DNA from: Hormiphora californensis
Lineage: Eukaryota > Animalia > Ctenophora
Assembly (NCBI GenBank): GCA_020137815.1
Contig: CM035354.1
Span: forward strand, 5,332,001 to 5,396,000
DNA: 64,000 bases
Reading direction: 5' to 3'
In this document: positions 2,323-64,000 of the stretch, in pieces
Layout: each line of letters begins with the position of its first letter
Numbering within the stretch: position 1 is the first letter of the stretch
Made by a program: the position numbers and the translations under genes
Notes under the pieces: generated by a model
Told to the model about the DNA's origin: nothing
Seen by the model: the letters and a program-made list of their open reading frames with translations, nothing else
Database searches by the model: none

Positions 2323-7603
<5,281 letters not shown>

Positions 7604-8136: not shown

Positions 8137-8295
8137 CCTTTTCGTTTTTAGTCCGTCGTTTCCATCCTCATAAAGCGCCCTTTTATCATGATTCTTCATG
8201 TTGTGGTATATTTTTACGCCTGATTTTACGTCTATCGATTCTTTTTTAGGCGGTATGACTAGATAAAACTTAAAAAACGATGCTGAAAGAAGAAA

Positions 8296-9854
8296 ATGGT
8301 CAACCAGGGGAAAAAAGATCTGATTTTGTCTATCGATGTGGGCACTACAAACTGTCGAGCCGCTGTTATAGATAGTCATGGGAAAATATTAGCACTTGCT
8401 TTTGAGCCCATTGTTCTCTTGATGCCCCAGAAAGGCTGGTTTGAGATTTGTCCCCACAAACTATGGAGCGACATATTGCGGTTGATCGAAACTGTAACTG
8501 CGTCTTACAAAAGCAGAATTCTAACATGTGGTCTGTCGGTACAAAGGAACACGTTTATAACTTGGCACCGTGAGACAGGGGAATACTTGCACAACTTCAT
8601 CACGTGGCTGGACATGAGATCCACGGGAATGTGTAATAACTGGAACAACAGCTACATGATAAATGCAGGGAAATGGATAGCATGGGCTCTGGGTTGTGTA
8701 GTCAGATCACGACACATGATATGTGCTTCCACATTTGCAGTGAAAGGAGAAAGCGATCCCTATGCGGTTAAAATGGGTCATGGACAACATCCCCCGGGCT
8801 CGACACCTCGCAAACGAAAATAAGCTGTGTTTTGGGACAATTGAGACATGGTTAGTTTGGAAACTAACTGGAGGGACGGTGTGGGCTACAGACTACAGCT
8901 GTGCCAGTAGTACTGGGATATTTGATATTTGGAAGAAATGTTGGTGTCCCAATAATGACCTTTCTGTTCTCCAACCCCCGAGAAATACTCCCTGAGGTTC
9001 GGGACTCTGACTCGAACTTTGGAAAGATAGCCAAAAGCCATGGACTGGGTTTTTCATGTCCTATAACGGGTGTTATAGGAGACCAACAGGCGTCAATATT
9101 TGGGAACCTGCTTTTTAACGAGGGAGATATAAAGTTGACACTCGGTACTGGGATTGCGTGTAATGTGAACACTGGACCTCGAACACACCCTACTTCCCAC
9201 TCCATCTACCCGCTAATAGGATGGAAGTTGGTCGGGCAGGATACCTCTTACATTGCCGAGTTACTAGCAGCAAACGGTGGTAGAGCAGTTGAATGGGTGG
9301 TAAAATCAGGTCTAATTGATCAAATTGAGAATGTTGATAAAGTAGCTAGATCAGTACCGAACTCAGCTGGTGTTTCCTTCATCCCAGCGTTCAATGGTAT
9401 GGAGGTACCCTATCGAGACCCATTTGCTGGGACATCCCTGTTTGGGATCTCTCTCCGCACCAAAACCAGCCACATAGTCCGTGCTGTCCTCGAGTCCCAG
9501 GGGTTTATCAGTAAGCACGTGTTAGACCTGGTGTTTGGGTACTACGGGAAACCATCCCATATCCGGGTGGATGGGGGTGCCTCCCAGTCTGGATTCATCC
9601 TGGAACAAGTATCATCTCTATCAGAGGTGGAGCTGGAGAGGAGTGAGTGTGTTGAGGGGAGTCTGATGGGGGCAGCACTATTGGCTGGGTTGGGTGTGGG
9701 GTTGTATACCTCACTAGACGACATCAGGAGGAATGTGGTGTTGCAGTGTTCCAGGATTGACAACACAGGAGGTAGTGATGAGCTGAAGGAGGGGTATGAG
9801 GCGTGGAGAGAGAGTGCTGAACGGTGTGTAGACTGGACCAAGAAACTGCCATAG
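8296..9854 (+). CDS. GK5: Glycerol kinase 5-like FGGY kinase, intronless, two +1 frameshifts (~8750, ~8949)
   Basis: DVGTT, SVQRNTFITWHRETGEYLHNFITWLD (GK5-type), FGTIETWLVWKLTGG, TDYSCASSTG, GDQQASIFG, KLTLGTG, RAVLES, VDGGAS. Both frame breaks are one extra base in a homopolymer (GAAAG, TCCCA). Confidence 0.85.
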
Positions 9855-10873: not shown

Positions 10874-12361
10874 ATGCCTCAAACTATCATAGCCCTTGAT
10901 ATCGGCACAACTAACATCAAAGCAGCCCTAATATCATCCTCCACTGTCCACTTATCCCGGTCCTGTCCTCTCAAAACCGTGATATCTGGAGACCGGGTGG
11001 AGATAGACCCGCTCCTCCTTTGGGTCGATGTCCAGAGGTTGATACGCGAGGTCGGGGATGGGGCTGAGGTTGTTGATGGGATTGGGATCTCAACTCACCG
11101 AGGTACCTTTGTGACATGCGATAGGGAGACTGGAGTTCCTCTTCATAACTTGATAACCTGGGCCGATAGGAGAGCTGTTGGGTTGTGTGATCAGTATAAT
11201 GCCAGTTATACAAGTAGGATTGGTAAATCGTTGCTATGGTTACTTGGGAAAGTCACTGGCTCCTCTCACCTGACCTGTCTATCGACGTTTGATGTTAGTG
11301 CTGCAAATGTGCATTTTAGGTACGCCTGGGTTCTTGGAAATGTGGCCAAAACTCAGGAACTGATAGCAAAGGATCGGTTAGTTTTTGCAACCCTCGACTG
11401 TTGGCTAGTGTACAAGCTAACTGGTAACTGGAGGACTGATTACTCAAATGCTGCTGCAACGGGGCTGTATGATATGTGGGGTGGTATGTGGGGAATGGAT
11501 TGGTGTCCGTTAATGTCCGTTGTATTTGGACACCCTCGCTCCCCCTTTCCCGAGGTTCTCCCTAGTGATGGACACTTTGGGGTGACTCGTGTCCTTGGTA
11601 ACCCATCTGTTCCAGTGTGTGGTATTATAGCTGATATGCAATCATCCCATATTGGTAACTGTGTAACTGATCGGTTGCACCTCAAGGTAACCATGGGAAC
11701 GTGCATCTCTTGTTCCCTAGTAACAGGTCCGGATATCCACCCTAGTGCCAACACGATATTTCCACAGCTCGCCTGGAAGTGGAGAGGAGAGGAGCCATGG
11801 TACCAGGCGGAGAGCATGACCAAGAAGTTAGAAGGTTGGAAGATTGATATCTTGGTATCGAGTGGATTGGTTGAAAGCCTATCGGATGTGGATGATATAG
11901 CTAGCTCAGTGGATATCGAGGAATGTCCCTATTTTGTTGCGGATAGTCCACTGGACGACCCTCGTAAAGGCATGAGAGAGCTACAAGATCACCATTCCCC
12001 AGCCCACCTTGTAAGAGCGGTTCTAGAAGCCCATGCCTTCACTGCTGCATGTCTGGTTATGGAGTTAAGGGAGTTCTACACCACCTCCCCTCCCTTAGTT
12101 GTTGTTGATGGGGGTGCCAGTAAGTCCCGTGTTATCCTGCAGACTATAGCTGACGTGACGGGAGTGGAAGTTCAACAAGCGAGGAGGGTTGATGGTGCTC
12201 TTTATGGTGCTTACAGGGTGGCAGCCAGGGGTCTGGGAATCGAAGTTGGGGAGGAGCAAAAGGAGACGACTTCAGGACGGGTATTTGAAAGTGTAGACGG
12301 GGAGAGAAGAAACGGAATTTTGAAACGGTTTAATGTATGGCGTGATTTTAGTGGTTTTTAA
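10874..12361 (+). CDS. Second, divergent GK5-like FGGY kinase, intronless, 495 aa
   Basis: Intact ORF with DIGTTNIKA, ISTHRGTF..LHNLITWADRRA, FATLDCWLVYKLTG, TDYSNAAATG, RAVLEA, VDGGASKS. Confidence 0.88.
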   Translation: MPQTIIALDIGTTNIKAALISSSTVHLSRSCPLKTVISGDRVEIDPLLLWVDVQRLIREVGDGAEVVDGIGISTHRGTFVTCDRETGVPLHNLITWADRRAVGLCDQYNASYTSRIGKSLLWLLGKVTGSSHLTCLSTFDVSAANVHFRYAWVLGNVAKTQELIAKDRLVFATLDCWLVYKLTGNWRTDYSNAAATGLYDMWGGMWGMDWCPLMSVVFGHPRSPFPEVLPSDGHFGVTRVLGNPSVPVCGIIADMQSSHIGNCVTDRLHLKVTMGTCISCSLVTGPDIHPSANTIFPQLAWKWRGEEPWYQAESMTKKLEGWKIDILVSSGLVESLSDVDDIASSVDIEECPYFVADSPLDDPRKGMRELQDHHSPAHLVRAVLEAHAFTAACLVMELREFYTTSPPLVVVDGGASKSRVILQTIADVTGVEVQQARRVDGALYGAYRVAARGLGIEVGEEQKETTSGRVFESVDGERRNGILKRFNVWRDFSGF

Positions 12362-12686
12362 TTTGTATTTTTTTATTATCAAGCGGGTTTTAGTAGACTG
12401 TAGATTTAATCTGTGTATTTTAATTGAGTGTATAAATAACTACGATTATATCTGTATCTGTATTTTATCCTAGCATCGGGTTTTTAAATCATATCTAAGT
12501 CTGGAGTTTTTTATCATACCTATGAAGTTTATCGTCATGTAGTAACATGGTTTTTATCTCACACTGGAGTTTCATGTTAACTAATCTGGTTTTATATTTC
12601 ACATTTGTATTACGCAAGAGTTTTTATTCTCCAATTCTCTAATTTCAGTTCTACACTGTTCTTTGTTATTCTACCTCGCCCCTCCC

Positions 12687-13134
12687 AGTAGTATAGTGTG
12701 CACAGTAGGGACCCCTTTTTGACGCGAACAGGGGGAAACTGCCTCATGACGTCACAAGTAACGTGATATGAAACACCTGTGCACCGTGAATATTTCTTAA
12801 CATGTTGCGCTGGCTAGATGAAATATTGCGCTGACAAGGGCCACCGAGTGTGAGCACTTAAAATGAGCACTTTTTTGTGCTCCGATAACAATTTTTGATC
12901 TTGGAGATAAAATAAGCTTGTTCGCAACCTAGCAATAGACTCGATAATAGTAAAACGCTGACAAGGGCCACAGGATTGGCCGTGTGAATACAGAGGGAGT
13001 ATGACGTCACTCGGCATATTATGAAGTAATCATGAATGATCATTCAGTGACAGTGAATGATCATTAATGATCATGAATGATCATTTTAAGGTCATTTTAG
13101 AGGTAGAGACAAACAAGCAACTCGTTTTTTAAGG
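12687..13134 (+). repeat. Left terminal inverted repeat of mini-Polinton
   Basis: Reverse complement of 15785-16230, except a 36-bp block (12975-13010) and a few inner-end mismatches. Confidence 0.95.
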
Positions 13135-13158
13135 GTTATTCAAATTTATATTTTAAAA

Positions 13159-13575
13159 TTAAATTTCTCGAAAATGCAACGCTATCACAGTCGGGAAGTC
13201 CTGTATAATCTCATTTGAAAATTTTAAATCTTGATTTTTGACATTGCGTATATCGAATTCCATTTCAATTATAGCTGAGCGAGAGACAGTTCTGTATGTT
13301 GGGTTAGTAAACTCGTGATGATTGTAGCCCTCATTCAGTCCAAACGGGAAGATACCCATAAATCTCCGCTTTTCATGATTTACGTTTGTGGGATGAACCA
13401 TATTAGAGTAGATAAGTCCTAATTTCCTTCCCGCAGGTAAGTCATCATTTGATGGAGTTGCAATCGATATACTTTTTATTGCAACTTGATACATTTTAGA
13501 TAGATCAAGAGCTTCTTCTAGCTCAACCGTGAAGTTGGCGGGATTTTGTTCATTACTGCATACGATTACATCCAT
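13159..13575 (-). CDS. Polinton minor capsid protein (penton, single jelly-roll), 138 aa
   Basis: NPANFTVELEEALDL..YQVAIKSI; IYSNMV..NV; FTNPTYRTV..IIEMEFDIRN..L.F; TVIALHFRE. This follows the Maverick/adintovirus penton pattern (NxxxxFTxxL..YEVAL; IYxDxV; PxYxxV; IxIxIRD; LHFR). Confidence 0.85.
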   Translation of the reverse strand: MDVIVCSNEQNPANFTVELEEALDLSKMYQVAIKSISIATPSNDDLPAGRKLGLIYSNMVHPTNVNHEKRRFMGIFPFGLNEGYNHHEFTNPTYRTVSRSAIIEMEFDIRNVKNQDLKFSNEIIQDFPTVIALHFREI

Positions 13576-13611
13576 CTTTCTTTTGTATTGACTTATTATA
13601 TGTACTTAAAT

Positions 13612-14030
13612 ACTAATTACTGTGCCCAGAACTCTCCCTTGAACTGTCGCTTCTGCCTTCAGAATCGTATTCTTCACTTGAAGTTGAATCGGGATCACCA
13701 GGTGAATTGTACGACTTACTCGGACTGTCGAATATTAGGGTGGGAAACTTTTGTTTGACCAATTTAATGATCAGTTTGATTGCTAGCTCAAGATTTTTGT
13801 CAAATACTTCGCTGAGGCTTTTTTCGCAATCAACAATTTGATGGCTTTAACCGTTCCTTTTCCGCCGTTGTTAGTACAATATCCCCATCTAGAACTGCTT
13901 TCATCATTAACATGATTAACGATTCATTGCTCTCGCATTCCGATCGGAAATCAGTATTGTGGTATCGGCTCTTATGTGTAGCCAGGCTGTGTTTAGTTGA
14001 AAACATTCGATTGCAATACATACACTCCAT
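13612..14030 (-). CDS. C2H2 zinc-finger protein of the element (66-aa ORF 13830-14030; probably ~140 aa across a frameshift at ~13846)
   Basis: CMYC-x12-HKSRYH zinc finger. Adding one A at TTAAAG joins an open frame AIKLLIAKKASAKYL...SSEEYDSEGRSDSSRESSGHSN*. Confidence 0.65.
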
Positions 14031-14068
14031 GACAAATGACGACGATGATCATTTGATGAACATCCAGG

Positions 14069-14080
14069 CTATATATATAG
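14069..14080. promoter_or_regulatory. Bidirectional TATA-like element between the divergent element genes
   Basis: Palindromic CTATATATATAG lies ~27-40 nt from both the minus-strand ATG (14030) and the plus-strand ATG (14107). A further TATAAAAG at 14421-14428 precedes the capsid ATG. Confidence 0.55.
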
Positions 14081-14106
14081 GACTTACAGCTAAAAAATAA
14101 TCAATC

Positions 14107-14418
14107 ATGCGTGTGCCTTATGTCGATGTTACTCCCAATCCCGCAGTCTACGACCAAGCACTTTCACGGGAACTCGGTGTCTATTCGAATCAATCAGGTG
14201 CTGGAATAGGAGGTTTTTTGAAAAAAATATTCAAAACTGTAATTCCAATCGGGAAGACTATTCTAAAACAAGGATTTGAAATAGCAAAACCCGGTTTACA
14301 AGAAGCTGGACATCAGCTTGTCGGAGCAGCTAGTAATTATGCAGCAAAGCAAATTGAGACTGGAACTAATAAACTTACTAACAAGCTTGGAAAAAGAAGA
14401 TATGGTCAGTTATCATAA
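14107..14418 (+). CDS. Small Polinton virion protein with glycine cleavage motif and amphipathic helix (adenovirus pVI/pX-like), 103 aa
   Basis: NQSGAGIGG followed by the amphipathic FLKKIFKTVIPIGKTILKQG and a basic C-terminus (KLGKRR). Lies directly upstream of the major capsid gene. Confidence 0.7.
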   Translation: MRVPYVDVTPNPAVYDQALSRELGVYSNQSGAGIGGFLKKIFKTVIPIGKTILKQGFEIAKPGLQEAGHQLVGAASNYAAKQIETGTNKLTNKLGKRRYGQLS

Positions 14419-14454
14419 ACTATAAAAGGCTTGCAATGGGACAGAGGAGTAACT

Positions 14455-15753
14455 ATGACTAAGTATATTAAGTCTGCAGAGGGATTTCCCTCTCAACTAC
14501 ATCTATGGGATCCTCAGCCCACCCAGGCAGCCATTGTAGAGACAAAATGGGTAGATGTTTATCCCTCCAACTCACTTGAGTACTCTGATGAAATAAATTT
14601 TACAATCCCATCTATGGAAAGTTTCATGTTGGAAAGTGTTGACATTTTCACAGAACTTCGGGTTCTTACAGCAACTGGGACAAATCCAGCAGCTGATCAA
14701 AATGTGTCAACTGCACCACATCTTGCTGCAAGTTTGTGGAGGAATGTTGAGGTTGAGGTTGGCGGTGTACCGTTAGTTCAATCTTATGAGAATGCCTACG
14801 GGATGTTCAAGTTCTGGGATGATGTTATTCACAACAGTCACGATTCGAAACCTTTGATTAAGAGGAGAGAAGGATTGCTCCTTGATACTGTGGGCGATAA
14901 AGACGGAAGTGAAAACTTGGTCTTCTATCCAACAACAGGAAGCCCCAAAAATGCAAGTGGCCAAGAAAGAGCTAAAGTTATTGAAGAGGGTAAGAAAGTT
15001 TACCTGAGATCGGAGTTCAATATACCTTTGTTCAAGCAAGGAAAACTTCTTCCATCGGAGGTAACGTACCATGTGAAGTTAACGAAAAACAACTCTGGTT
15101 ATATTCTCCTGGCGGCTGATACTAACACTGATGAAGTTCATTTCAACAAAGTAATTCTAAGATGTACTTTCCAGCGCCCTAGAGATGCTATTATTTCTGC
15201 TATAGAAAGACGACTTGTAAAAGAAAGGGCGATTTATCATGCAGATAAGAAAATCATGACTACCTTCCCAGTTTCAAATGGAACCACCAACATTCAAATT
15301 GATAATCTCCTTAATGGACCACTACCTTATTTCTTTCTCGTCTGTGTACAAGATAGAAATGCTCTCATTGGAAATAAGCGTAGTAAAAATCCCTATTCTC
15401 TCCGTTTAGTAAAATCAGCTCAACTTTATGTCAATGGAAAAGAGCATTTTCCCCGAGCTTTGGAAATGACCGATCATTTAGAGACAAATATGCTGGCTGA
15501 ATTTGTTCTGGAAACTGGTAGCAAAGCAGATTCTTTGGTTTGTCACCATTACCGAGTTTATCCTGCATTGGCTTTTGATCTAACGCAAGACAAAACGCAG
15601 AATCAACATGGGTTAAACTTGGGACGAAGTGGGAATGTTAGTTTATCTTTGGAAATGCTTCGGGAGCCAACTGAAGATTTGGTGGTTATTGTTTTGGCTT
15701 GGTATGAACAAATTATTGAAGTTAACAAAAACCGTCAGTTCTTTATTGTATAA
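14455..15753 (+). CDS. Polinton/adintovirus major capsid protein (double jelly-roll, hexon-like), 432 aa from the first ATG
   Basis: LHLWDPQPTQAAIVETKWVDVYP..INFTIP; SLWRNVEVEVGG; LFKQGKLLPSEV; DNLLNGPLP..NKRSKNPYSL; AFDLTQD; GNVSLSLE; IVLAWYEQIIEVNKNR. These are colinear with the Maverick MCP motif series. No internal stops. Confidence 0.9.
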   Translation: MTKYIKSAEGFPSQLHLWDPQPTQAAIVETKWVDVYPSNSLEYSDEINFTIPSMESFMLESVDIFTELRVLTATGTNPAADQNVSTAPHLAASLWRNVEVEVGGVPLVQSYENAYGMFKFWDDVIHNSHDSKPLIKRREGLLLDTVGDKDGSENLVFYPTTGSPKNASGQERAKVIEEGKKVYLRSEFNIPLFKQGKLLPSEVTYHVKLTKNNSGYILLAADTNTDEVHFNKVILRCTFQRPRDAIISAIERRLVKERAIYHADKKIMTTFPVSNGTTNIQIDNLLNGPLPYFFLVCVQDRNALIGNKRSKNPYSLRLVKSAQLYVNGKEHFPRALEMTDHLETNMLAEFVLETGSKADSLVCHHYRVYPALAFDLTQDKTQNQHGLNLGRSGNVSLSLEMLREPTEDLVVIVLAWYEQIIEVNKNRQFFIV

Positions 15754-15784
15754 CCTTAGATTATGTGAAATATATATTTGATAT

Positions 15785-16230
15785 CCTTTAAAAAAAAGAG
15801 TTGTTTGTTTGTCTCTACCTCTAAAATGACCTTAAAATGATCATTCATGATCATTAATGATCATTCACTGTCACTGAATGATCATTCATGATTACTTCAT
15901 AATATGCCGAATATCTCTCTATCCCTCTCTCACACTCTCTCACCTGTGGCCCTTGTCAGCGTTTTACTATTATCGAGTCTATTGCTAGGTTGCGAACAAG
16001 CTTATTTTATCTCCAAGATCAAAAATTGTTATCGGAGCACAAAAAAGTGCTCATTTTAAGTGCTCACACTCGGTGGCCCTTGTCAGCGCAATATTTCATC
16101 TAGCCAGCGCAACATGTTAAGAAATATTCACGGTGCACAGGTGTTTCATATCACGTTACTTGTGACGTCATGAGGCAGTTTCCCCCTGTTCGCGTCAAAA
16201 AGGGGTCCCTACTGTGCACACTATACTACT
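15785..16230 (-). repeat. Right terminal inverted repeat of mini-Polinton
   Basis: Mirror of the left TIR; 15911-15942 is a TC-rich block instead. Confidence 0.95.
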
Positions 16231-16271
16231 CCTCCCTCCCCTAGCTCTGATTTAGTAGTAGTTGTTAAGAG

Positions 16272-19200
16272 ATGCGCCGACGAGGTATGCCGGGTGCGTC
16301 CCGAAACAGCCAACAGAAGGTCCTTCTGATGGGACGGAGTGAGGCTGGTAAGTGGGGATTTCTGGGTTTGTGTTAGGGCTGGTAAGTGGGTAAGGGGGCT
16401 GGTAAGTTGGGGTTTCTGGGATTTGTCTTATAGCAGAGTCGATAACTACATCGACCTCTCCCAATTGTTCCAGTTTTTGTCCCATCTGTTTGGAGCCTCG
16501 ACACGACCTCTAAACAGGTGTTACTTTTTCACAAACTGTTTTCATCTTGGTGTAATCAGCAGTTGAAATGTTGCTGATCATAACAAAAACCTGACTAAAT
16601 TTTTTCAACTTGGGGTAAAACCATGGGTGTCAAAAGTTAGCTCTAGGTCCCCTGACTAACCATCCGGAGACTCTAAGAGATATTTCAAGCCGTTCTCCCG
16701 TAATCATTAATCCCGGTAGAGCACATATTTGAGTATGGACGTACGTGCAATTGCCTACAACCTCAACTTTAATGTATAACGTTAATGTGCGTCTCTCTCT
16801 TTTCTCCCCCTTGAGAAAGAGTTATCTCGCGCGGCGCAACCGCACGTGCGGTTTTTCCAGAGAGAGTGAGAGACATACAATAACATGTAAACAGCCTGCC
16901 AGCGCTCACGTACGTCCGCATTGTATTTTTTTCTCCACCGGGATTAATGATTACGGGAGAACGGCTTGAAATATCTCTTAGAGTCTCCGGATGGTTACTC
17001 AGGGGACCTAGAGCTAACTTTTGACACCCATGGTTTTACCCCAAGTTGAAAAAATTTAGTCAGGTTTTTGTTATGATCAGCAACATTTCAACTGCTGATT
17101 ACACCAAGATGAAAACAGTTTGTGAAAAAGTAACACCTGTTTAGAGGTCGTGTCGAGGCTCCAAACAGATGTGACAAAAACTGGAACAATTGGGAGAGGT
17201 CGATGTAGTTATCGACTCTACTATTATAGGAGCGAACTTTTAGTATCCACTATCCACCCGGATCCCTGTAATGTCCCTATCTCACCAGGTAAGACAAGTA
17301 TGAGAAGTATTATATTTGCCAACTACATTGCCAGTGATACCCGCCGGTTGGGGGCAACTATCGAGGTGGAGCAATCTAATGTTCGGTTCCTGGACAACTT
17401 GGTGTTAAATATCTGGGATTGTGGTGGCCAGGATGCCTTCATGGACACATTCTTTACCACCCAGGCAGACATCCTCTTCTCCCACGTACAGGTATGTAAT
17501 ATGTCTGGGTAATGGGTATTGGGTGTATTGTTTATTGCTTACCCCGGTATGAAATAGGAATTCTATTCTTCCTCAAAGTGGCAGTAAGAGCTTTTGCCGC
17601 GTTAAAATGCATTAGTACAGTTTGGTAAATGCACATTTACAATGCGAATATATTTTATGCTATAGAGTGCTATTTTCAGCATTCATCTCTTCACAATATA
17701 TTCCGCTTTAAATAGCGGCTATTTAATTAGTACTGTCCGTAGTAATGCATCCGATACACACTACCCACATCACAGTCGTTCATTTAAAACGATTTAAATT
17801 GCCATTTAATTCCAAGAAGCATTCATCTCTCTCATGCTCTATCCAGGTGCTGACTGCACTGGTATAACCTCATTTCCCTCCAGGTGTTGATATTCGTGTT
17901 TGATGTCCAGAGTAGTGATGTAAAGAAGGACCTGGAGGTATTCCAATCCTGCATAGAAACTGGAATCCTGAAACACAGCAAAGATGCAAAAGTAGGTTTT
18001 GTACCTTCGAACACACGTGTAAATAGAAGATTGTATTACATATCATGATTATATTTCCATCGGTTTAAAATCGGTTTAAGTTTCTCTACAACTAAACATG
18101 TTCCCCCCTCCTCAGATTTACTGTTTAATTCACAAGATGGATCTGATACCTAAAGCACAGCGAGACGAAGTATTCACTGCACGGAGGAAAGAACTGGAAT
18201 TCCTCTCAAAACCTCTTCAGGTAACATGCCCCCACAATAAATCTTCTCCATGATAATAGTCAGGACCACTATTGGTGCGCGGTCGTGCCCACGGAAGGAG
18301 TGCTTGGATCATCTTGAAACCGGTTTTAAGTTCACTAATGCATACCCAAAAGTGTCCGTAGCCATTTGGGTGATGTTCTGACAATCCAATCACGAGTTAT
18401 GACCGAAAAACAGTCAAAAAAGACGTTTTAAAGTGACAAAAAGGAGGATCTGAACACAGCCCTTATATGAAGGGCTGGGGCTTTGAAACTTCTTGTGTGA
18501 ACAGAGAATCGTCCAAATTTGCAGTGTCAACTTTCAGATAGTTTCTATCTTTTGTAGTTATCTAATTAGAGCCATTCAAACATGTGAGACGATCTGTATG
18601 ACCCTGCAAAACAGAGTGATTAGGTACTTCTTCCGTCTCATATTGCTTGCTCTCACCGCTTGTATGCTTTAATCCGCTCTCTAATTGGGCAAATCTCGTC
18701 AAGTGATCACTTCACAAGCAGTATCATAGGCCCCTTTAGCAACTTCTCACATGTTTAAACGACTCTAATTAGATAACTACAAAAGATAGAAACTATCTGA
18801 AAGTTGACACTGCAAATTTGGACGATTCTCTGTCCACACAAGAAGTTTCAAAGCCCCAGCCCTTCATATAAGGGCTGTGTTCAGATCCTCCTTTTTGTCA
18901 CTTTAAAACGTCTTTTTTTGACTGTTTTTTGGTCATAACTCGTGATTGGATTGTCAGAACATCACCCAAATGGCTACGGACACTTTTGGGTATGCATTAG
19001 TGAACTTAAAACCGGTTTCAAGATGATCCAAGCACTCCTTCCGTGGGCACGACCGCGCACCAATAGTGGTCCTGACTATAATATATGCCCCCCCCCCCCC
19101 ACACAATAAAGCTTCTCCATGATAATGTATCATGTATGTGATTTTCTACAATAACTCCTTTAAATTTGGGGAAACAGGGTCGAGCAAGACAAGAGATTCT

Positions 19201-26800: not shown

Positions 26801-27498
26801 AGATAGTGGTGTTGAATTAGCACCTGCAGTAACGGCTATAGCACCTTTAGGTGACGTGATACCACCCGCTGCTGAAGATGTGGCTAGTGAATTAGTGTCT
26901 GAATTAGAACTTCCTGAATCGTCTGAAGTGGCTGAGTCACCAGATGATGTTGCTAATCTGTCACCTGAGCCTGTGTCTGCTGATCTGTTTGATCTGCCAA
27001 CTCAAATAGCAGCTGTAGATGAGTCAGCAGATGATGTATCACAACACGTTGCTGAAGTAGAAATATCACAACACGTTGCTGAAGTAGCGCCTACTACTGA
27101 AGTAGCATCTGTAGATGTTGAAGTAGCACCTGCAGGCAGCAGCTGATATAGCACCACATGCTGCTGATGTAGCACCTGCTCAAGAGCCGCTAATTGGTGA
27201 AGATAATGACCCACTAATTGATGACGAATTTGATTGGCCAGTTGACCCAATTATGGAAGGATCTGATTCAGTTGATTCGGTTACTGAACCACCCCAAAAC
27301 ACCTCACCTCCCCCTCTCTCAGAACCACCGGCAGCAGTGCCCGCAGCAGCAAGTTTTGACACCTCTGAGGACGCAAAGTTATTCGGGAATTCCAGTACTG
27401 ACTTCCTGGAGGATGTGAATCAGGAAATAGCGGACCTGAACCTTGACGATATTAATGTCGATGACATCGATATTGATGACGAAAATCTCTTTGATTAG
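20833..27498 (+). CDS. COPB2: Coatomer subunit beta' (multi-exon; one apparent +1 frameshift at ~27135)
   Basis: [21 protein letters not shown]40 repeats ([27 protein letters not shown]), [44 protein letters not shown], acidic end [21 protein letters not shown]. Confidence 0.96.
24956..25780. mobile_element. ~825-bp non-autonomous DNA transposon in a COPB2 intron
   Basis: TIRs GGGGGG(G/T)GCGACATGTTAATT, subterminal TTAAC repeats, TSD AAAGCAG(GG) on both sides (7-9 bp, blurred by the G run). G-rich ends with a long TSD fit MULE/Merlin-type elements. Confidence 0.8.

Positions 27499-45399: not shown

Positions 45400-64000
<18,601 letters not shown>

What the first reader, a model, noticed from the sequence alone, without database searches (positions are those of the whole stretch)
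12687..16230. Capsid-only mini-Polinton: candidate satellite or genome segment of a multipartite polintovirus
Seen: a 3.5-kb element with AGTAGT ends, near-identical ~447-bp TIRs and a perfect 6-bp TSD. The interior is fully used by four genes (penton, Zn-finger, pVI/pX-like protein, major capsid). The penton and capsid stop codons lie only ~25-30 bp from the TIRs, and I see no relic of pPolB, integrase, ATPase or protease. Known: autonomous Polintons are ~15-20 kb, carry those enzymes and make 6-bp TSDs through their own integrase. Inference: this copy integrated recently using enzymes supplied in trans. A random deletion derivative would be expected to leave broken gene ends, whereas this keeps a clean virion module. 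That fits a dedicated structural segment of a segmented element, or a satellite that supplies its own capsid while borrowing replication, packaging, maturation and integration.
Basis: partly seen in the sequence, partly recalled or inferred. Interest (0 to 1): 0.95.

Follow-up and report, generated by a model that had tools for sequence, protein, structure and literature searches.

The report
Capsid-only satellite of ctenophore adintoviruses
This 3.5-kb virus-like element, inserted at a site that other chromosomes lack in what is likely a comb-jelly genome, keeps the shell-building genes of a Polinton-type virus but none of its enzymes, and it likely belongs to an old lineage of miniature satellites that would borrow copying, insertion, packaging and maturation from full-size relatives.

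Summary
The element is real: 3,544 bp, AGTAGT ends, ~467-bp inverted repeats, 6-bp target duplication. Empty-site contigs occur in two samples, and the interior is multi-copy. Predicted folds confirm a double-jelly-roll capsid and a single-jelly-roll penton; pX resembles adintovirus pX. No integrase, ATPase, protease or polymerase relic was found. One correction: this copy's zinc-finger gene is frameshifted.

It is not a one-off deletion. Relatives outside its clade have the canonical order, with protease directly after the capsid gene (17 of 17). This element needs two deletions, an inversion and loss of the penton insert. Its capsid belongs to a fully supported clade reaching down to 56% identity, with Pleurobrachia members, never seen on a contig over 6 kb (78 records). 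The short penton recurs at 68-87% identity. Capsid dN/dS is 0.14 (one pair).

Best reading (0.55): an old helper-dependent, capsid-encoding satellite lineage of adintoviruses. A segment of a multipartite virus (0.15) is not excluded: no genome was available, and neither helper nor partner segments were seen. Virions and expression are untested. Ten literature searches found no description.

The parts
12681..12686 (+). Left target-site duplication CCTCCC
   Evidence: empty-site contigs hold one copy
12687..13153 (+). Left terminal inverted repeat, starts AGTAGT; outer 288 bp identical to the right arm; arm-specific patch about 12975-13010; 10-bp tandem array 13029-13085
13159..13575 (-). Penton (minor capsid protein), 138 aa, single jelly roll lacking the ~120-aa insert of canonical relatives
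   Evidence: alignment; model; fold matches
13613..14030 (-). C2H2 zinc-finger gene with a middle part resembling the ~107-aa ORF that lies between ATPase and penton in canonical relatives, and an acidic tail; frameshifted near 13840 in this copy
14069..14080 (.). Palindromic TATA word between the divergent zinc-finger and pX genes; likely a bidirectional promoter (untested)
   Evidence: 16 of 16 canonical loci shown have a TATA word before pX
14107..14418 (+). pX-like basic core protein, 103 aa, with the QSGAG glycine motif shared with canonical relatives
   Evidence: 29-48% identity to the gene before the capsid gene in 21 canonical loci
14421..14426 (+). TATA word before the capsid gene
   Evidence: 20 of 21 related loci shown have one (read by eye)
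14455..15753 (+). Major capsid protein (hexon), 432 aa, double jelly roll
15768..16230 (-). Right terminal inverted repeat, ends ACTACT
16231..16236 (+). Right target-site duplication CCTCCC

Best explanation
This is an integrated, multi-copy 3.5-kb element with Polinton ends that encodes a predicted capsid, penton, core protein and zinc-finger protein but no enzyme, and it is likely one member of an old lineage of helper-dependent satellites that would be copied, inserted, packaged and matured by enzymes of full-size adintoviruses in the same, probably ctenophore, host. Shown: ends, target duplication, empty site, gene set, clade membership, and constraint on the capsid gene. Inferred origin: the lineage kept the contiguous block between ATPase and protease of a canonical adintovirus, lost everything on both sides, inverted the zinc-finger/penton half so two transcripts diverge from one palindromic TATA word, and in this sub-lineage trimmed the penton insert. 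Inferred cycle: a helper's protein-primed polymerase uses the AGTAGT ends, its integrase makes the 6-bp duplication, and its ATPase and protease fill and mature a shell built from the satellite's own proteins. The own shell would give the small genome priority, and might be too small for the helper genome. Particles, expression and the helper are untested.
For: (1) (AGT)2//(ACT)2 ends and 6-bp TSD are Maverick hallmarks (PMC8097293 section 7); empty sites in two samples. (2) In X3 interior depth is 334-350 against 86 for the flank and 58 for the empty site, roughly 6-8 haploid copies; the contigs join TIR directly to penton and to capsid. (3) 17 of 17 out-of-clade loci that extend past the capsid stop have the protease gene there; the window has a TIR. 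(4) Capsid clade with full support, down to 56% identity; 78 contig records, longest 5,953 bp; for the closer sub-clade 67 records, longest 4,857 bp; 0 of 11 against 23 of 68 representatives over 6 kb, p=0.016. (5) Eight other insert-less pentons, 68-87% identical, with the same junction; intact zinc-finger homologues down to 61% between themselves. (6) Capsid dN/dS 0.14, 36 synonymous and 18 non-synonymous changes, p 9e-12. (7) Confident folds.
Against: No helper was seen: no genome is held. Short contigs are common in metagenomes, the outgroup count includes host chromosomes, and the 6-kb threshold was chosen after seeing the data. Linkage of short penton to clade capsids rests on equal longest-contig lengths, not on seen DNA. 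dN/dS is one pair. This copy's zinc-finger gene is frameshifted. X3 outer-TIR depth is 0.9 times the interior, not 2, which is unexplained; the tool warns that depth is no copy number. Insert-less pentons also occur in ordinary adintoviruses (10.1101/2024.03.25.586562 section 16).
Confidence: 0.55

Rival explanations
1. Structural segment of a multipartite adintovirus-like virus: other short segments with the same ends carry polymerase, integrase, ATPase and protease, and no full-size genome is needed.
For: Clean module, old clade with a length ceiling near 5-6 kb. Precedent for 3.3-5.8-kb segments with shared terminal repeats in the polB-bearing Vesanto virus (PMC8363768 passages). In X5 and X6 the bin over the element's outer end is deeper (about 3,100) than the interior bins (about 500-2,600), which other elements with the same ends could cause.
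Against: No partner segment seen. In X3 the inner-TIR contig has 1.9 times the interior depth, leaving no surplus. Canonical elements with integrase, ATPase and protease exist among relatives, and a large cluster of related capsids lies on Mnemiopsis chromosomes, so helpers are plausible.
Confidence: 0.15
2. A young non-autonomous family deleted from an unseen full-length parent that already had the inverted layout and short penton; it spreads by transposition alone and its capsid constraint is inherited from the parent.
For: Non-autonomous, polB-less Polintons that stay mobile are reported (10.1101/2025.02.07.637071 passages). The zinc-finger gene is broken here. Clade gene content is not directly seen.
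Against: Contigs run unbroken from capsid into TIR in X3 and X5. The 96% relative L001 has the same sequence after the stop codon. No clade capsid on a long contig, even for seven sequences seen on 4-8 contigs each (longest 3.4-4.9 kb).
Confidence: 0.2
3. Host-tolerated interfering element: its capsid proteins and ends blunt helper adintovirus infections, like a defective-interfering genome.
For: Own capsid and trimmed penton could poison or divert helper assembly (inference). Multi-copy in two samples.
Against: The site is polymorphic and unfixed; nothing shows host benefit or expression. Compatible with, rather than alternative to, the satellite reading.
Confidence: 0.06
4. Single-copy decaying deletion relic or assembly artefact.
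For: Frameshift in the zinc-finger gene.
Against: Multi-copy depth, empty sites, unbroken contigs in two samples, dN/dS 0.14, diverged relatives with the same short penton.
Confidence: 0.04

Closest known systems
Adintoviruses / animal Polintons-Mavericks (PMC8502044; PMC8097293; PMC4028283)
   Same: AGT-repeat ends, long TIRs, 6-bp TSD, double-jelly-roll capsid, penton, pX-like core gene; capsid about 50% identical to canonical marine elements.
   Different: 3.5 kb against 12.7-24.6 kb for intact vertebrate elements; no pPolB, integrase, ATPase or protease; penton inverted relative to pX and capsid. PMC4028283 describes the opposite trend, concerted loss of virion genes.
Non-autonomous or polB-less Polinton derivatives (10.1101/2025.02.07.637071; Repbase non-autonomous Polintons, recalled)
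   Same: Retain ends and stay mobile in trans.
   Different: Reported cases are large elements with cargo replacing polB; here all enzymes are gone and a selected, rearranged virion module is kept across a deep clade.
Capsid-encoding satellites: satellite tobacco necrosis virus, capsid-forming PICIs, adeno-associated virus (all recalled, not read)
   Same: Own shell, borrowed functions from a helper.
   Different: No homology; here the satellite descends from the helper's own family, integrates in an animal germline and encodes no replication or packaging protein.
Drosophila Vesanto virus and bidnaviruses (PMC8363768)
   Same: Short linear units of 3.3-5.8 kb with terminal repeats in a polB-related group.
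   Different: Single-stranded, parvovirus-type capsid, not known to integrate with a 6-bp TSD; partner segments are not shown here.

Membership tests
Polinton/Maverick (adintovirus), autonomous | TIRs with (AGT)2//(ACT)2 or (AG)3 ends and 6-bp TSD | tested here: met
   definition from PMC8097293
Polinton/Maverick (adintovirus), autonomous | Double-jelly-roll major capsid protein | tested here: met
   model pLDDT 87, pTM 0.87; Foldseek E 6e-16 to 1e-14 to PBCV-1, Sputnik and mavirus capsids
Polinton/Maverick (adintovirus), autonomous | Single-jelly-roll penton | tested here: met
   Z 11.3, 10.9, 10.8, rmsd about 3.0, 127-131 aligned to PBCV-1, mavirus penton and Sputnik chains; top viral match a Drosophila adintovirus protein, TM 0.80
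Polinton/Maverick (adintovirus), autonomous | Protein-primed DNA polymerase B | tested here: not met
   no room (94% of interior used) and no relic
Polinton/Maverick (adintovirus), autonomous | rve integrase | tested here: not met
   relatives' integrases (Pfam rve) give no hit in the element
Polinton/Maverick (adintovirus), autonomous | Packaging ATPase and adenain protease | tested here: not met
Satellite virus of an adintovirus | Encodes own capsid, conserved by selection | tested here: met
   (one pair for dN/dS)
Satellite virus of an adintovirus | A helper with compatible ends in the same host, able to exist without the satellite | not testable with these tools
   no genome held
Satellite virus of an adintovirus | Encapsidated, transmissible genome | not testable with these tools
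   contigs cannot show free ends or particles
Multipartite DNA virus segment | Complementary segments with shared termini at matching abundance | tested here: inconclusive
   X3 inner TIR 1.9 times interior; outer-end depth low in X3 and high in X5/X6; terminal 18-mer absent from viral contigs

The most novel reading that the evidence does not exclude
The first multipartite double-jelly-roll DNA virus of animals: an adintovirus lineage in ctenophores split into separately packaged and separately integrating 3.5-6 kb segments, of which this is the structural one.
Probability: 0.15. Interest if true: 0.95.

Novelty: new variant of a known kind. Interest (0 to 1): 0.72.

Why it matters
Selection to keep a capsid on an element that cannot copy or insert itself makes most sense if particles are made and used. 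That bears on the open question of whether animal Polintons are working viruses. It would also add a satellite tier, or a segmented form, to the Polinton/adintovirus group in one of the earliest-branching animal lineages. The element defines a minimal virion module (capsid, 138-aa penton, pX) that suits structural study of capsid size control and helper hijacking.

Tried and rejected
No genome held, so TIR-bounded loci could not be listed. Viral-contig scans with two capsid alignments, the penton and the terminal 18-mer found nothing; prokaryote-genome scans found nothing. Pfam and NCBIfam do not recognise capsid, pX or penton; zinc-finger hits are below cut-off. Sequence search of solved structures gave only one unrelated-looking weak hit (TnsC) for the capsid and none for the penton. 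The Atlas gave high feature scores with recognition values under its threshold, leads only. No RNA holder listed. TIR-only depth and loose ends in further runs remain unexamined. The wide penton profile search was still queued at the last collection. The first tree run timed out. No Rfam match. No second Polinton-ended pair with a TSD in the window; a weak integrase hit at 27238-27321 (E 0.018) was not pursued. Exact look-up of the window's pX and of a flanking host gene failed, so the host is inferred only from viral relatives. Homology of the zinc-finger protein's middle part to the canonical 107-aa ORF is only suggestive: HHalign probability 65%, 38 columns; above all shuffles, but reversed sequences score 10-16 against 16-19 bits. 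Polymerase labels on fragments in L009, L015 and L021 are my reading; Pfam did not name them.
Full report
Observation. The element spans 12687-16230, begins AGTAGT, ends ACTACT and is flanked by CCTCCC on both sides; the duplication is exactly six bases. The inverted repeats align over 467 columns at 94.7%: 288 identical outer bases, an arm-specific patch, then a near-identical inner part. These ends and the 6-bp duplication are the hallmarks reported for intact Mavericks (PMC8097293, section 7 and passages). Four genes fill about 94% of the interior: penton and zinc-finger gene on the minus strand, pX and capsid on the plus strand, diverging from a palindromic TATA word at 14069-14080.

Reality and recency. 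Six of 17 listed runs hold half or more of the sampled words; they are two samples of one organism in two studies, and one may be the assembly's source. I laid four runs. Contigs in X3 and X6 join the two flanks with a single copy of the hexamer, so the site is polymorphic and the duplication was made on insertion. In X3 the interior depth is 334-350 against 86 for the flank and 58 for the empty site, about 6-8 haploid copies; the tool warns that depth is a poor copy count. One X3 contig runs from the left TIR through penton and zinc-finger gene, another from pX through the capsid gene into the right TIR. All four runs differ from the window by a short stretch near 13840: this copy's zinc-finger gene is frameshifted, and natural homologues of 133-168 aa match it in two frames.

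Gene identities. The 432-aa protein folds with pLDDT 87 and matches double-jelly-roll capsids of PBCV-1, Sputnik and mavirus. The 138-aa protein folds with pLDDT 86 and matches penton-type chains at Z 10.8-11.3, rmsd about 3, 127-131 residues aligned, well above unrelated folds at Z under 6; its best viral match is a Drosophila adintovirus protein. The 103-aa gene matches the gene before the capsid gene in 21 canonical loci. 'pX' and the reading of its QSGAG motif as a protease site are recalled labels, not tool results.

What relatives look like. The capsid has 81 homologues. Of 29 metagenome loci, 28 are 33-64% identical; where long enough they show the order integrase, ATPase, 107-aa ORF, basic ORF, penton of 249-304 aa, pX, capsid, protease. 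All 17 out-of-clade loci that extend past the capsid stop have the protease gene there. L001, 96% identical, has the window's sequence after the stop but ends 40 bases later. None of 153 ORFs from these loci finds an enzyme relic in the element. Deriving the element from this order takes a deletion on each side, an inversion of the penton half, and clean loss of the penton insert. The zinc-finger protein's middle part may descend from the 107-aa ORF, which would preserve adjacency to the penton, but support is moderate.

An old, short lineage. The window capsid falls in a clade with full support in FastTree (16 of 91 rows) and IQ-TREE (10 of 27 rows, 100/100), reaching down to 56% identity. 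Its named members are Pleurobrachia bachei proteins; Mnemiopsis capsids lie outside with canonical loci. The host is therefore probably a ctenophore, an inference. Across 40 clade sequences with contig data (78 records) the longest contig is 5,953 bp; in the sub-clade at 64% identity or more (67 records) it is 4,857 bp; seven sequences seen on 4-8 contigs top out at 3.4-4.9 kb. By representative, 0 of 11 in the clade and 23 of 68 outside exceed 6 kb (p=0.016; two rows without contig data dropped; threshold chosen afterwards; outgroup includes host chromosomes). Eight further insert-less pentons are 68-87% identical with the same junction. Equal longest-contig lengths pair short penton with a 79% capsid (4,308), zinc-finger with a 96% capsid (3,375) and short penton with zinc-finger (3,130, 1,436, 1,627), suggesting conserved linkage; the DNA was not seen. 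Window against L001 capsid gives 36 synonymous and 18 non-synonymous changes, dN/dS 0.14, one pair only.

Mechanism. Best reading (0.55): a helper-dependent satellite lineage that supplies its own shell and core protein and borrows polymerase, integrase, ATPase and protease from full-size adintoviruses. The target duplication shows an integrase acted in trans; the rest is inferred. Multipartite segment (0.15): no partner was seen; X3 inner-TIR depth is 1.9 times the interior, leaving no surplus, but the outer TIR is only 0.9 times in X3 and the outer-end bin is high in X5 and X6, so depth is inconclusive. Young deletion family from an unseen rearranged parent (0.2) stays open because clade elements were not seen end to end. 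Interference role (0.06) and relic or artefact (0.04) are minor.

Comparison with print. Ten searches listed no paper on a capsid-only, satellite or segmented Polinton, or on ctenophore Polintons. The library lacks most subscription papers and Repbase. Earlier notes of this scan describe capsid-only elements of 5.5-5.8 kb and gene-less palindromic satellites in other animal genomes. No sequence look-alike was found. They are unchecked leads that hint at a recurrent design, not support.

Verdict. The element is not an autonomous Polinton but a Polinton-derived, capsid-encoding dependent element from a deep, apparently short-genome clade: a new variant of a known kind, interest 0.72. The satellite-or-segment question is directly testable with a host assembly.

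Noticed in passing
window 13557, run X11 contig; proteins P0127, P0166: The penton slot looks variable. A seawater contig follows the window through the zinc-finger gene to the first penton codons, then runs on for 231 unlike letters. One P. bachei gene model places a long, insert-bearing penton (41-47% identical to the short ones in the jelly-roll halves) next to a clade capsid; another joins the zinc-finger start to a different penton-like end.
   Followed up: partly
window 14778-14832, runs X5 and X6: Contigs match only this short piece of the capsid gene and run on unlike on both sides, suggesting a second, more distant capsid family in that sample.
   Followed up: no
window 12975-13010 and 15911-15942: The two TIR arms differ in one internal patch, CT/AG-rich on the right arm, between perfectly matched outer and inner parts.
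   Followed up: partly
window 8287-9854 and 10874-12361: Two tandem FGGY-family kinase genes; the second is one unbroken 495-codon frame and ends about 325 bp before the insertion.
   Followed up: partly
window 16430-17224, 6635-7142, 18253-19082, 59924-61064, 46379-46507, 2615-2765: Several fold-back, MITE-like elements without Polinton ends; the first has very high depth in the host runs.
   Followed up: partly
window 16254: An AGTAGTAGT word 23 bp right of the element with no convincing partner end or TSD in the window.
   Followed up: partly
L004 454-2078; L021 224-2069: Two canonical relatives carry tandem duplicated penton genes.
   Followed up: no
P0137: A related capsid on 15.6-kb contigs is annotated as a Tenacibaculum MAG protein, probably a viral contig binned with a bacterium.
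   Followed up: no
P0064 cluster: Forty-member cluster of related capsids, including unannotated Mnemiopsis leidyi proteins on chromosome-scale contigs; it groups with canonical loci L009 and L010.
   Followed up: partly
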